Shown here: positions 3,520 through 5,728 of the stretch, in pieces
How the letters are laid out: every line of letters begins with the position of its first letter
Position numbering within the stretch: the stretch's first letter is position 1
From: a virus
Taxonomy: Duplodnaviria > Heunggongvirae > Uroviricota > Caudoviricetes
DNA: 7,517 nt
Direction: 5' to 3' (one strand)
Virus record (IMG/VR): IMGVR_UViG_2778261058_000011
Location: 1 to 7,517 of that record
The notes under the pieces: model-generated
What the model was told of the DNA's origin: nothing
Seen by the model: the letters and a program-made list of their open reading frames with translations, nothing else
Databases searched by the model: none
Position numbers and translations under genes: made by a program

Positions 3520-3768
3520 TTATTGTTTCACTGGATCCCGCATTCTGCGTCTTATTTTCCACAGATATTCGATCATCGCTTCCACCTGCTCACGGTTGGT
3601 TGCGAAAATTTCCCCGGTCAGTGAGCTGCGCAGAAAATCATGATGATCCACAACAAACAACGCATCGGAAGAAAGCAGACGGCGATATTTTTTTGCTGTC
3701 GTGGTTTCCAGATCATCAAAACCATGAAACTTTTTATGTTGCTGAACTTCTTCAAATGTCACTGGCAT
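3520..3768 (-). CDS. hypothetical protein (82 aa), last gene before the terminator
   Basis: ATG at 3766-3768 with a strong AAGGGGGA RBS 4-10 nt upstream. The start overlaps the stop of the upstream 89-aa ORF by 8 nt. No recognisable motif; basic C-terminus (WKIRRRMRDPVKQ). Confidence 0.55.
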   Translation of the reverse strand: MPVTFEEVQQHKKFHGFDDLETTTAKKYRRLLSSDALFVVDHHDFLRSSLTGEIFATNREQVEAMIEYLWKIRRRMRDPVKQ

Positions 3769-4028
3769 GTATCCCCCTTTGCTGCCCGGCGCTGGCGCTT
3801 GTGCTTCTCATTCAGCGCCATCAGCCGCGTTTCAGCCTCCTGCCGCTCCTGTGGTGTCACTTCCCCACATGGCTGGCCTTTCAGGTCGTAACGTGCACCA
3901 CCAGCCATCAGGGCGCGGTAATAGCGCGGAGACTGCGCATAAGATGCCAGCGTCGCACGTAATGCCCCTGGCCCGAATGCCAGCCCCCTGACGGCGATAT
4001 CCTGCATCAGGTCGTCGAATATCCCCAC
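3759..4028 (-). CDS. hypothetical protein (89 aa, or 82 aa if the ATG at 4005-4007 is used)
   Basis: The track ORF begins at a GTG (4026-4028); the first ATG is at 4005-4007. RBS context is weak for both. It is in register with the flanking genes and coupled to the 82-aa ORF. No recognisable motif. Confidence 0.4.
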   Translation of the reverse strand: MGIFDDLMQDIAVRGLAFGPGALRATLASYAQSPRYYRALMAGGARYDLKGQPCGEVTPQERQEAETRLMALNEKHKRQRRAAKGDTCQ

Positions 4029-4062
4029 CTTCAGCGGCTTCGGTGCTTCCCGGCTGAATAAG

Positions 4063-4293
4063 TCAGTCAGGCCACAACTCAGTAAGGCGGTTAACGCGCC
4101 TGCGGTTTTTTCGCTGCCGTTTGGTCATATGCCGCCACGGTGTCGCCCCTGTGGGCTTCTGCTGTGCGTTCTGATTGCCGGGTATCACTTTATGCGCCGA
4201 TGTGGTTTTATCCTGCTGCTGTGCCGCCTGCGTCGTTTCTGACTGCGTGCCGTAAATGCCTTTCGGTTTTCGGTTAATGGTCAGCTTTGTCAT
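4063..4293 (-). CDS. hypothetical small protein (76 aa), Gln/Thr-rich with basic C-terminal tail
   Basis: ATG at 4291-4293 with a GGGGAAGG RBS 1-8 nt upstream. Low-complexity middle (TQAAQQQDKTTSAHK...NAQQKPTG) and an arginine-rich tail (KRQRKNRRRVNR). Could be a disordered nucleic-acid-binding protein; function unknown. Confidence 0.45.
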   Translation of the reverse strand: MTKLTINRKPKGIYGTQSETTQAAQQQDKTTSAHKVIPGNQNAQQKPTGATPWRHMTKRQRKNRRRVNRLTELWPD

Positions 4294-4329
4294 GCCTTCC
4301 CCTGTAATTACTCTGTTCGCTGTTGTGAA

Positions 4330-4755
4330 TTAAAACGGTATCCCGTCCCCGTACGGGTCATCGTGCTGGCCTGTCTGTTGTTTTGCCCTGTTCAGTGCGT
4401 CAGTGGCCTGGCCCTGCTGGCCTTTTTTGCCGCCCGGTCGCGCCGTTCTGGCACTGATTACACTGTCTGCGATAACCTGCCAGCCCTGCCGCGTTTCGCC
4501 GTTCTGGCCTGTCCACTGGCTTACCTGCATGTTACCCGCCACGCTCACCAGTTCGCCTTTCTGGTGCCTGGCCAGTGCATCGGCCTGTCTGCCAAACGCC
4601 AGGACGGATAACCACATCGTCGCCGTTCCGTCATCTGCCTGGCTGCACGGCAGGGGAACCGCCATACTCGCCATCGCCATTTGTGTCCCTTTGCTGGTGG
4701 TCTTTAACTGCGGGTCAGCCACCAGCCGCCCGTAAGCTGCTATCTGTGCTGTCAT
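4330..4755 (-). CDS. ssb: single-stranded DNA-binding protein (short SSB)
   Basis: 141 aa. The N-terminal OB-fold region aligns by eye with E. coli SSB (AYGRLVADPQL... and TMWLSVLAFGRQADALARHQKGELVSVAGNMQVSQWTGQNGE). A Gly/Gln-rich linker follows, and the C-terminal DDPYGDGIPF matches the acidic DDDIPF-type SSB tail. The start overlaps the stop of the upstream ORF (ATGA). Confidence 0.8.
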   Translation of the reverse strand: MTAQIAAYGRLVADPQLKTTSKGTQMAMASMAVPLPCSQADDGTATMWLSVLAFGRQADALARHQKGELVSVAGNMQVSQWTGQNGETRQGWQVIADSVISARTARPGGKKGQQGQATDALNRAKQQTGQHDDPYGDGIPF

Positions 4756-5525
4756 GCTGTATGCTCTCCGTTTTTTACTGGCCCTGTCATCAGTGCGCGC
4801 TTAAGCTGCTTGTGTGAGATATTAAACAGGCAGTTCATTCTTCCCGTTCGCTTCACCCGATAACCCGATGCGACCATTGCGGCGATTAATGCGCCGTTTG
4901 TGATGTATGTCGGCTCTGTTGGTTGCCCGTCGCCCTTAGCTCTTCTCTGATTCACACGCTCAACACAATGTTTCAGGCCGTAGGATGTCGGATTTTTTCC
5001 AGGGAATGATGCAATCTTACAGTCGGTTAGGTTGTTCTCCCTTATCCAGCGTAAACAGCTCATCGCCTCCGCCATGAAGGGCGCATAATCAAGCGGGTGC
5101 TCCCATGCCTTATCACGGCTGTACAGTTCAAGTCCGTCGCGGTTAAAAAAAGGGTAAGCGGCAAGAATTACCGTTACTGCGTGTTTAATTTCCACCTCAT
5201 CATTCTGTCGCTCTTTTTCCGTTCCGTGCGGGTAATAATCAGAACCGCCCGGATTGATGCACCGTTTACCGCTGAAAGGCCATTGCTTCGCCATTTCGGG
5301 TGTTGAGTGATTACCGTCGCTCCGTTCTCGTTGTGCCTCTGTCCACTGGCTGGCGTATTCCGTAAAACTCACCGCCTTGCTCTGTCGCATCCAGTGCGCA
5401 ATCATGACCAGCGTTCTGGTAAGGCTCTGTATATCTCCGTGCTTCTCACACTGTCCCGCAAAGGCCTTGAGCGCTTCGCGTTCTTTGTAGTTCATACCCT
5501 GACAGGTCATATTTTCTTTATCCAT
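4752..5525 (-). CDS. hypothetical protein (~257 aa), possibly replication-associated
   Basis: Long ORF (track 4752..5555 from a GTG). I prefer the ATG at 5523-5525, which has GGGGAG 9 nt upstream; ATGs at 5508-5510 and 5493-5495 are also possible. The stop overlaps the ssb start, and the 5' end lies inside the iteron array. No motif I can assign. Function is inferred only from position between ori and ssb. Confidence 0.55.
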   Translation of the reverse strand: MDKENMTCQGMNYKEREALKAFAGQCEKHGDIQSLTRTLVMIAHWMRQSKAVSFTEYASQWTEAQRERSDGNHSTPEMAKQWPFSGKRCINPGGSDYYPHGTEKERQNDEVEIKHAVTVILAAYPFFNRDGLELYSRDKAWEHPLDYAPFMAEAMSCLRWIRENNLTDCKIASFPGKNPTSYGLKHCVERVNQRRAKGDGQPTEPTYITNGALIAAMVASGYRVKRTGRMNCLFNISHKQLKRALMTGPVKNGEHTA

Positions 5526-5728
5526 TCCCCACCACTCCCCACTTTTGCTCCCCACTTTTTAAATTCCCCACTTGCTCCCCATCTCGTTTTTTGGGTGAAT
5601 CTAATGCTTTGTTTTTCATTGTGTTTTTTACTCCCCACTTTTTTGGATGTATACAGGTCGAAAAGTGGGGAATAGTGTTTCAATTTTGTTAAATTCCCCA
5701 TACTCCCCACTTTTACTCCCCACTTTTT
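5525..5728. repeat. iteron array flanking an AT-rich spacer; candidate replication origin
   Basis: Copies of (C/T)TCCCCA(C/T)TTTT at 5535-5546, 5548-5559, 5564-5573, 5575-5582, 5631-5644, 5694-5701, 5703-5714 and 5716-5728, a degenerate copy at 5525-5533, and one inverted copy at 5661-5671 (AAAAGTGGGGA). The two clusters flank an AT-rich stretch (5585-5630). The array begins at the rep stop codon. Confidence 0.6.

What the first reader, a model, noticed from the sequence alone, without database searches (positions are those of the whole stretch)
4752..5525. Unassignable ~257-aa protein wedged between ori and ssb, with its start inside the iterons
This is the largest protein in the window that I cannot place in any family. 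It is translationally coupled to ssb (overlapping ATGA), and its 5' end overlaps the iteron cluster, so Rep binding at ori could affect its expression. Position suggests a replication accessory role such as a loader, primase-like or annealing protein. A satellite-specific function such as helper interference or derepression is equally possible.
Basis: inference. Interest (0 to 1): 0.5.

Follow-up and report, generated by a model that had tools for sequence, protein, structure and literature searches.

The report
Two-module orphan protein beside satellite origin
The 257-residue gene right after the replication origin of this E. coli phage satellite is a real, conserved gene that fuses two widespread protein modules nobody has characterised; it probably binds nucleic acid, and its function is still unproven.

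Summary
A 257-aa ORF (5525-4752, minus strand) starts on the last origin iteron and overlaps ssb by ATGA. It matches no Pfam, NCBIfam, PADLOC or PDB family. The window is an E. coli capsid-forming PICI-type satellite.

In enterobacterial satellites the gene always follows the origin, whichever of three initiator families and four iteron types is present, so it is not iteron-specific. C-module genes in viral contigs cluster with DNA polymerase, helicase, primase and exonuclease genes. Fusion partners are an alpha-CTD-like helix-hairpin-helix domain and GIY-YIG-type nuclease domains.

The best reading is an iteron-independent, nucleic-acid-binding accessory of the replication module (confidence about 0.4). 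A cargo or interference gene, or a transcription factor, cannot be excluded. The slot also holds unrelated genes, and rep plus ori alone replicate in a related PICI. Interest is moderate.

The parts
4752..5525 (-). Target CDS, 257 aa plus stop. The start is ATG 5525; GTG 5555 is rejected.
   Evidence: dN/dS is 0.09-0.16. Homologues align from M1. RefSeq annotates a 774-nt gene in the 96% identical locus.
5214..5525 (-). N-module (residues 1-104). It has three or four helices, then a conserved low-confidence motif WPFSGKRCIxxGGSDYYP. Other motifs are MxYxERExLK, MIAHWMRQ and FxEYAxQW.
   Evidence: It exists free-standing as proteins of about 90-120 aa. Ten of 30 family members match phrog_4935. 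No Pfam match. AF2 pLDDT is 73-84 for the helices and about 40 for residues 81-103.
4755..5213 (-). C-module (residues 105-257). It is basic (pI 9.25) and has a winged-helix-like alpha/beta fold. Motifs are SYxLKHxxE, YIxNGxFIxA, GY/F and NxxFNIS.
5525..5726 (.). Replication origin. Ten RTGGGGAR iterons lie in two sets (5525-5582 and 5694-5723), plus single copies at 5631-5638 and 5665-5672 (the latter inverted), around an AT-rich core at about 5583-5630.
   Evidence: The layout matches the published PICI ori organisation, with iteron sets flanking an AT-rich region immediately 3' of rep (PMC6092414).
5535..5538 (-). GGAG, a Shine-Dalgarno-like sequence inside an iteron, 9 nt upstream of ATG 5525.
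   Evidence: Read directly from the sequence. That it acts as a ribosome-binding site is inferred.
4752..4755 (-). ATGA overlap of the target stop codon with the ssb start codon.
   Evidence: The same 4-nt overlap is seen in L201, L203, L215-217, L011, L024 and L025. An unrelated gene in L002 has it too.
4330..4755 (-). ssb, 141 aa, ending in DGIPF.
   Evidence: Pfam SSB, E = 8e-16.
5727..7133 (-). RepA-type initiator helicase (AAA_25). Its stop codon lies 4 nt before the first iteron.
   Evidence: Pfam AAA_25, E = 3e-43. phrog_2850. RefSeq calls it 'helicase RepA family protein'.

Best explanation
The gene encodes a two-module accessory protein of the satellite's early (replication) module.

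Shown:
- It is a real gene under purifying selection.
- Two separate scans (one strand-aware, one spanning the intergenic region) found neither a sigma-70-like promoter nor a minus-strand terminator between repA and its start.
- It overlaps ssb by ATGA.
- It fuses an acidic-to-neutral helical N-module with a basic C-module whose confident AF2 model has helix-helix-helix-hairpin topology.
- Homologues keep the position immediately after ori with three unrelated initiator families and at least four unrelated iteron sequences.

Inferred:
- It is transcribed by read-through from repA across ori.
- The C-module binds nucleic acid in a way that does not depend on the iteron sequence. Candidates are duplex backbone, unwound or forked DNA, or SSB-coated DNA.
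- The N-module, with its conserved but disordered WPxxGxRxIxxGxSDY tail, contacts a partner common to all these elements, such as a host replisome component or SSB.
- The protein thereby assists or tunes fork establishment on satellite DNA after the initiator has opened the origin.

It is probably auxiliary rather than essential.
For: Synteny. The order is initiator, then a 170-400 nt iteron-bearing gap, then this gene. This holds next to three initiator types: RepA/AAA_25 (window, L001, L197-L203); Zn-ribbon-Toprim-DUF5906/D5_N primase-helicases (L003, L005, L011, L205-L217, L227); and DUF927 (L006).

Iterons. They differ completely between these groups: GTGGGGAG, GGCGGATA, ACCTGTACCA and AGGTAGACG. 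The protein stays 56-76% identical, and its hairpin residues stay similar.

Wider context. Free-standing C-module genes lie beside or near MGE helicase or primase genes in L010 and L014. In viral contigs, 28 of 43 distinct groups have a polymerase, helicase or primase gene within 4 kb. The recurrent neighbours are DNA polymerase A, a PD-(D/E)XK exonuclease, an SNF2 helicase and a DnaG-type primase.

Fusions point to nucleic acid. These are N-module plus an RNA polymerase alpha-CTD-like helix-hairpin-helix domain (P0097, 43 bits against a cut-off of 23.8), and GIY-YIG-type MUG113/T5orf172 plus C-module (P0196, P0212).

C-module properties. Median pI is 8.95, and the window copy has a net charge of +6. 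Its model is confident. The best structural neighbours are all winged-helix DNA binders, including the P4 alpha origin-binding domain.

Module linkage. N and C modules are found together only as fusions, including distant ones in a Motiliproteus MAG and in P0128.

Selection. Both modules are under purifying selection.
Against: - No biochemical function is demonstrated, and no characterised homologue exists.
- hhalign finds no relationship to the P4 alpha origin-binding domain (probability 0.4%).
- The helix that would be the recognition helix (NGALIAAMVA) is hydrophobic.
- rep plus ori alone drive plasmid replication in the related PICI EcCICFT073 (PMC6092414).
- The slot is variable. An unrelated 83-aa gene occupies it in another PICI and is coupled to ssb in the same way.
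- About half of the homologue groups have no adjacent ssb.
- Only 148 of 5426 complete E. coli genomes carry a homologue, against 1679 with the flanking module.
- One phage copy of the C-module sits next to regulator and antirepressor genes, not replication genes.
- Only 7 of 65 bacterial-genome groups showed a replication gene nearby. This is a lower bound, because it came from a small BLAST reference set.
- Lying in a phage replication module may mean no more than 'early gene'.
Confidence: 0.4

Rival explanations
1. It is accessory cargo in a variable slot of the island. It would act on the helper phage or on competing phages or other mobile elements (interference, exclusion or counter-defence), for example by binding their DNA or replisome, and would not serve the satellite's own replication.
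For: - The slot between ori and ssb holds unrelated genes in related PICIs.
- The gene is rare compared with the flanking module: 148 against 1679 of 5426 genomes.
- In E. coli MDR_56 it is the last gene of a small satellite, a typical cargo position.
- Published work shows that rep plus ori are sufficient for replication, and that PICI genes downstream of ori include interference functions (PMC6092414).
- GIY-YIG nuclease fusions of the C-module exist.
- The C-module copy in an Acinetobacter phage lies in a region with XRE-regulator, antirepressor and repressor genes and several hypothetical genes.
Against: - PADLOC gives no significant hit (E = 0.022, zero matched stretches).
- The position directly after ori is kept across three initiator families, while other modules are shuffled.
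- dN/dS is low and uniform, with no sign of arms-race diversification.
- C-module genes in viral contigs sit inside core replication gene clusters.
Confidence: 0.25
2. It is a transcription factor. The winged-helix-like C-module would bind a promoter or operator, in the satellite's own downstream operon or in the helper, and the N-module would contact RNA polymerase or a regulator.
For: - All the nearest structural neighbours are winged-helix proteins: RFX, GntR, MarR and ArsR among them.
- One N-module protein is fused to an alpha-CTD-like domain.
- The gene lies upstream of ProQ/FinO and PerC-type regulators in related islands.
Against: - The would-be recognition helix is hydrophobic and highly conserved across phyla. 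That is unlike sequence-specific regulators.
- Structural scores are below the usual significance level.
- The N-only forms have no DNA-binding module, yet they keep the same slot.
- No helix-turn-helix family matches.
Confidence: 0.15
3. It is an origin-specific co-initiator. It would bind the iterons together with RepA, rather as the P4 alpha origin-binding domain binds its type-1 repeats.
For: - The gene abuts the iterons.
Against: - Homologues 56-76% identical, with similar hairpin residues, sit next to four unrelated iteron sequences.
- hhalign against the P4-alpha C-terminal family gives probability 0.4%.
- The window RepA carries C-terminal sequence of its own that reads like a winged helix (inspection only).
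Confidence: 0.07

Closest known systems
PHROG families phrog_9576 and phrog_17839 (C-module) and phrog_4935 (N-module), all annotated 'unknown function'
   Same: Direct sequence-family membership. The window C-module hits phrog_9576 at E = 2e-7. Of 52 relatives, 40 hit phrog_9576 and 32 hit phrog_17839. Ten of 30 N-module relatives hit phrog_4935.
   Different: These families have no known function. The window protein is a fusion of the two. That fusion is rare: 27 clusters among 5.8 billion proteins, and about 9 full-length representatives.
Winged-helix DNA-binding domains of the RFX type, including the origin-binding domain of phage P4 alpha protein (PDB 1KA8)
   Same: The confident AF2 model has the same helix-helix-helix-beta-hairpin topology. 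The domain is basic. It belongs to the replication module of an E. coli phage satellite.
PICI rep-ori replication module (EcCICFT073 and the SaPIs; PMC6092414)
   Same: The origin lies immediately 3' of the initiator gene, with two iteron sets flanking an AT-rich region, and transcription runs in one direction. The window follows this layout, and the target is the first gene after ori.
   Different: The published minimal replicon is rep plus ori. No role has been described for the gene after ori, and that slot is variable between islands.
P4 Cnr (ORF106, DUF5375), a small copy-number regulator encoded next to the alpha gene
   Same: A possible functional analogy only: a small protein in a satellite's replication operon that tunes the initiator. 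This comes from my own knowledge of P4 biology and was not tested here.
   Different: There is no sequence relationship (hhalign probability 0.08%). Cnr lies upstream of alpha, not after the origin.
GIY-YIG-type nuclease (T5orf172/MUG113) proteins with C-terminal DNA-binding modules
   Same: The C-module takes the position of the DNA-binding module in P0196 and P0212.
   Different: The window protein has no nuclease domain.

Membership tests
phrog_9576 / phrog_17839 (C-module, unknown function) | Significant profile HMM match | tested here: met
   The window C-module matches phrog_9576 at E = 2.3e-7. Of 52 relatives, 40 match phrog_9576 and 32 match phrog_17839.
phrog_4935 (N-module, unknown function) | Significant profile HMM match | tested here: inconclusive
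   The window N-module itself gives no hit at E <= 1e-3. Ten of 30 aligned relatives do, with a best E of 1.2e-8.
Winged-helix DNA-binding domain (RFX / P4 alpha origin-binding type) | Three-helix core followed by a beta-hairpin wing, with significant structural superposition | tested here: inconclusive
Winged-helix DNA-binding domain (RFX / P4 alpha origin-binding type) | Sequence-profile relationship to the P4 alpha C-terminal domain | tested here: not met
   hhalign of A4 against A11 gives probability 0.4%.
Winged-helix DNA-binding domain (RFX / P4 alpha origin-binding type) | Demonstrated DNA binding | not testable with these tools
   Only indirect support is available: basic pI and nuclease or helix-hairpin-helix fusion partners.
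PICI replication module (rep-ori) | Iteron sets flanking an AT-rich region immediately 3' of the initiator gene | tested here: met
   Ten RTGGGGAR copies lie in 5525-5723 against 1.2 expected for the whole window. The layout is as described in PMC6092414.
PICI replication module (rep-ori) | The gene is required for, or contributes to, autonomous replication | not testable with these tools
   The literature shows that rep plus ori suffice in EcCICFT073. I did not establish whether that island carries a homologue.
Helicase loaders, primases, and single-strand annealing proteins (DnaC, lambda P, Toprim, AEP, RecT, Erf, Sak) | Profile match to any such family | tested here: not met
   No such hit appeared in Pfam, PHROGs or NCBIfam, either for the protein or for 48, 40 and 47 relatives.
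Known anti-phage defence proteins (PADLOC-DB) | Profile match | tested here: not met
   The only result is a phospholipase effector at E = 0.022 with zero matched stretches.
SSB-interacting proteins (binding the SSB C-terminal tip) | Physical interaction with the SSB tail (here ...DGIPF) | not testable with these tools
   Translational coupling is present, but an unrelated gene in the same slot shares it. No complex prediction was available.

The most novel reading that the evidence does not exclude
The N-module and C-module together define a previously unrecognised, widespread class of phage and satellite replisome factors. This would be a DNA- or fork-binding adaptor that works with any initiator. 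It might recruit or divert host replisome components or SSB-coated DNA to the element's origin. That activity could double as the satellite's way of out-competing its helper for replication.
Probability: 0.15. Interest if true: 0.7.

Novelty: new variant of a known kind. Interest (0 to 1): 0.4.

Why it matters
Phage satellites of the PICI, cf-PICI and P4 types are major vehicles of gene transfer in Enterobacteriaceae. Their replication modules are described only as initiator plus origin. This work shows that the first gene after the origin is, in many of them, a conserved protein built from two modules. Together these modules have at least 876 representatives at 50% identity across bacteria and viral contigs, and no assigned function. 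The C-module often sits in the core replication gene clusters of uncultured phages.

If the protein proves to be a general, initiator-independent replication accessory, or a replisome-hijacking factor, two things follow. It would add a component to the satellite replicon model, and it would give a function to two sizeable 'unknown' families. If it is only cargo, the result still marks the ori-ssb junction as a variable slot.

Tried and rejected
Sequence and structure searches that gave nothing useful
- Pfam, NCBIfam and PADLOC gave nothing for the protein.
- Pfam gave nothing for 48 C-module relatives, 40 N-module relatives or 47 long forms, apart from rare fusion partners.
- PDB sequence and profile searches were empty.
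- tblastn against 50,697 phage genomes gave no hit for the full protein or for an N-module representative. One hypothetical protein matched a C-module representative.
- Rfam found no RNA family in the window at E <= 1.
- No sigma-70-like promoter was found in or around ori, and the only terminator-like sites in 4200-5900 are on the plus strand, opposite to the genes.
- The literature search found no paper naming the RefSeq proteins.

Specific homology ideas, rejected
- P4 alpha origin-binding domain: hhalign probability 0.4%.
- P4 Cnr/ORF106 and P4p05.
- The C-terminus of RepA itself, despite a superficial 'GYEMKHFRRW' resemblance: probability 0.65%.
- The 83-aa protein in the same slot of another PICI: no similarity.

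Readings rejected on other grounds
- GTG 5555 as the start. The 10 extra residues are translated iterons and are absent from homologues.
- Iteron-specific binding. Four unrelated iteron types accompany homologues.
- A split-gene (adjacent N and C genes) arrangement. It was never seen.

Technical refusals
Tighter sub-alignments were used instead.

Full report
**Setting**

All genes in the window run on the minus strand. In order they are:
- a DUF4222 gene (7429-7130);
- a RepA/AAA_25 helicase (7133-5727);
- a 200-nt iteron region;
- the target (5525-4752);
- ssb (4755-4330);
- a ProQ/FinO-like gene;
- an 82-aa gene;
- HK97-type major capsid, prohead protease, portal and head-tail connector genes.

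A 96-97% identical region sits in the chromosome of E. coli Br_190_kylling between hpt and gcd. It is flanked by an integrase, an HTH regulator and an Icd-like gene on one side, and by HNH and small and large terminase genes on the other. This is the gene set of a capsid-forming PICI (cf-PICI), as described for EcCIEDL933 (the term is from the papers found).

**The observation**

The ORF, its coordinates and the ATGA overlap with ssb are exactly as stated.

The iterons are real. RTGGGGAR occurs 13 times in the window against 1.2 expected, and ten copies lie in 5525-5723. They form two sets around an AT-rich core. They start 4 nt after the repA stop and end on the A of the target's ATG. This is the published PICI origin layout (PMC6092414).

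The iteron core contains GGAG. The copy at 5535-5542 therefore provides a Shine-Dalgarno-like sequence 9 nt before the ATG.

The longer GTG-5555 reading only adds translated iterons, so I reject it.

In 4200-5900 there is no sigma-70-like promoter, and all five terminator-like sites are on the plus strand, opposite to the genes. The gene is therefore most likely read through from repA. This is an inference.

**It is a real gene**

Against homologues at dS 0.06 to more than 2, dN/dS is 0.09-0.16, and it is similar in both halves.

**What the protein is**

Whole-protein searches find only 27 clusters among 5.8 billion proteins. All are 'hypothetical' and come from Escherichia, Raoultella, Enterobacter and Xenorhabdus.

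An exhaustive profile search of 1.84 billion representatives finds 876 proteins at E <= 1e-3. Only about nine are full-length. The rest match either profile positions 1-105 or positions 108-244, and most are free-standing proteins of 90-140 aa. The protein is therefore a fusion of two autonomous modules.

*N-module (residues 1-104)*
- It carries the motifs MxYxERExLK, MIAHWMRQ and FxEYAxQW.
- It also has a conserved but low-confidence tail, WPFSGKRCIxxGGSDYYP.
- It has no Pfam family. Ten of 30 relatives match phrog_4935, of unknown function.

*C-module (residues 105-257)*
- It carries SYxLKHxxE, YIxNGxFIxA, GF/Y and NxxFNIS.
- It has no Pfam family. It matches phrog_9576 and phrog_17839, both of unknown function.
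- It is basic: the window copy has pI 9.25, and the family median is 8.95.

The N-module's median pI is 6.3.

The two modules never occur as neighbouring separate genes in the 227 loci held. They occur together only as fusions. These include distant ones in a Motiliproteus MAG (L032) and in P0128.

**Structure**

The full-length AF2 model is moderate (pLDDT 76.5). The C-module alone, with a 66-sequence alignment, is confident (pLDDT 91.2, pTM 0.87). Its elements are helices 2-19, 46-59, 77-95 and 106-115, a hairpin at 120-130, and a helix at 134-142.

- RFX5;
- GntR;
- RFX1;
- SNF8;
- Cdt1;
- Cdc6.

The noise-level Foldseek list for the full model is also enriched in ROQ, ArsR and MarR domains. 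I read this as winged-helix-like topology, not as membership. hhalign against the P4-alpha C-terminal family gives 0.4% probability, and the third helix is hydrophobic.

**Context**

In enterobacterial satellites the arrangement is invariant. The initiator comes first, then a gap of 170-400 nt, then this gene. The gene is either N-only (about 100 aa) or N+C (245-260 aa). After it comes ssb with a 4-nt overlap, or ProQ/PerC, or the end of the island.

The initiator may be RepA/AAA_25, a P4-alpha-like Zn-ribbon-Toprim-DUF5906/D5_N primase-helicase, or a DUF927 protein. Each gap carries its own iterons: GTGGGGAG, ACCTGTACCA/TGGTATAGGT, AGGTAGACG or GGCGGATA. The proteins meanwhile remain 56-76% identical, with similar hairpin residues. 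This argues strongly against iteron-specific binding. It favours a function common to all these replicons.

Free-standing C-module genes were collected from 156 genome and viral loci (149 usable), forming 107 distinct groups.
- In viral contigs, 28 of 43 groups have a polymerase, helicase or primase gene within 4 kb.
- The recurrent neighbours are DNA polymerase A, a PD-(D/E)XK exonuclease (often adjacent), an SNF2 helicase, an HNH protein and DnaG-type or pol/primase genes.
- Two of three individually inspected genomic copies lie next to or near MGE helicase or primase genes. The third does not.
- In bacterial genomes the association is weak with my limited reference set: 7 of 65 groups, which is a lower bound.
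- One cultured Acinetobacter phage carries the module beside regulator and antirepressor genes.

**Fusions**

One N-module protein ends in an RNA polymerase alpha-CTD-like helix-hairpin-helix domain (P0097; Pfam 43 bits against a cut-off of 23.8). Another ends in what looks by eye like a canonical winged helix (P0037), but Pfam does not confirm it. C-modules are fused behind GIY-YIG-type MUG113/T5orf172 domains (P0196, P0212). These partners point to nucleic acid as the substrate or platform.

**Counter-evidence**

- The slot is not reserved for this family. A classical PICI with closely related ssb (about 93% DNA identity) and a more diverged repA (about 77%) carries an unrelated 83-aa gene there. 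That gene also overlaps ssb by 4 nt. The ATGA coupling therefore cannot be used as evidence of a specific partnership with SSB.
- Roughly half of the homologue groups lack an adjacent ssb.
- Only 148 of 5426 complete E. coli genomes have a detectable homologue, against 1679 with the flanking module.
- Published work shows that rep plus ori suffice for plasmid replication in EcCICFT073.
- In one common E. coli satellite the gene is the terminal gene of the island.

**Verdict**

The new findings are:
- the two-module anatomy;
- the size and spread of the two module families;
- the winged-helix-like, basic nature of the C-module;
- independence from initiator and iteron type;
- enrichment of the C-module in phage replication clusters.

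I commit, at about 0.4, to an iteron-independent, nucleic-acid-binding accessory of the replication module. The rivals are cargo or interference (0.25), transcription factor (0.15) and co-initiator (0.07). The remaining probability is unassigned.

The protein is not shown to be a new kind of system. It is a new fusion variant of uncharacterised phage and satellite modules, and a reasonable, not exceptional, target for experiment.

Noticed in passing
window 3759-4293 (minus strand): The ProQ/FinO-like gene is split into two ORFs (4293-4063 and 4028-3759). Compared with the intact 180-aa gene in NZ_CP182387, the window has a 4-nt TGAC duplication that shifts the frame, and a 12-nt in-frame deletion. 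Either this copy is a pseudogene or the change is a sequencing or assembly error.
   Followed up: partly
window 5525-5723: The iteron core GTGGGGAG contains GGAG. The origin repeats therefore double as Shine-Dalgarno-like sequences on the mRNA. One lies 9 nt before the target ATG.
   Followed up: partly
L002 6453-6704 (E. coli SA53-3 PICI): An unrelated 83-aa hypothetical gene fills the same ori-ssb slot and also overlaps ssb by 4 nt. The ori-ssb junction therefore looks like a variable slot with a conserved coupling architecture.
   Followed up: partly
L006 9163-9574; L005 9606-10000; L227 9713-9888; L011 7680-8000: Each initiator family has its own iteron set in the gap before the target homologue: GGCGGATA for DUF927, ACCTGTACCA/TGGTATAGGT for DUF5906-type, and AGGTAGACG for the D5_N type. 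These are candidate origins for those satellites.
   Followed up: partly
L227 (E. coli MDR_56, NZ_CP019903 2209970-2228341): A small satellite (int, HTH, antA, DUF4222, ash, Icd, DUF5906 primase-helicase, 245-aa homologue) ends directly against P22-like DNA-ejection genes. This resembles the helper-embedded PICI configuration of PMC10111431.
   Followed up: no
L007-L009 (Klebsiella plasmid and chromosome loci), gene at 8001-8342: A 113-aa C-module-only remnant (P0189), followed by ssb and perC, is embedded among IS elements on large Klebsiella replicons. It looks like a decayed satellite fragment.
   Followed up: no
P0001 compared with the window and L197: The commonest close relative (P0001, 92% identical overall) has an L197-type N-terminus (MKTERYIPQGMTY...) and a window-type C-terminus. 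This suggests recombination within the gene, near the module boundary.
   Followed up: no
window 5730-5870 (RepA C-terminus): The last 50 or so residues of RepA (…TIALLRDDMKKLGYEMKHFRRWLYKLENDGVIVIDG…) read like a winged helix and are the likely iteron-binding domain. The local resemblance to the C-module motif SYGLKHxVERW is not significant (hhalign 0.65%).
   Followed up: partly
window 3520-3768 (minus strand): An 82-aa gene (phrog_1957, unknown function) overlaps the end of the ProQ-like gene. It is conserved in the related cf-PICI (WP_001145404.1). Its function is unknown.
   Followed up: no
L226 (phage P4) 4096-4431: In P4, the crr repeats immediately 3' of the alpha gene overlap a GeneMark-predicted ORF (P4p05). 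This is the same 'ORF starting in the iterons after the initiator' geometry, but the product is unrelated to the N-module (hhalign 0.15%).
   Followed up: partly
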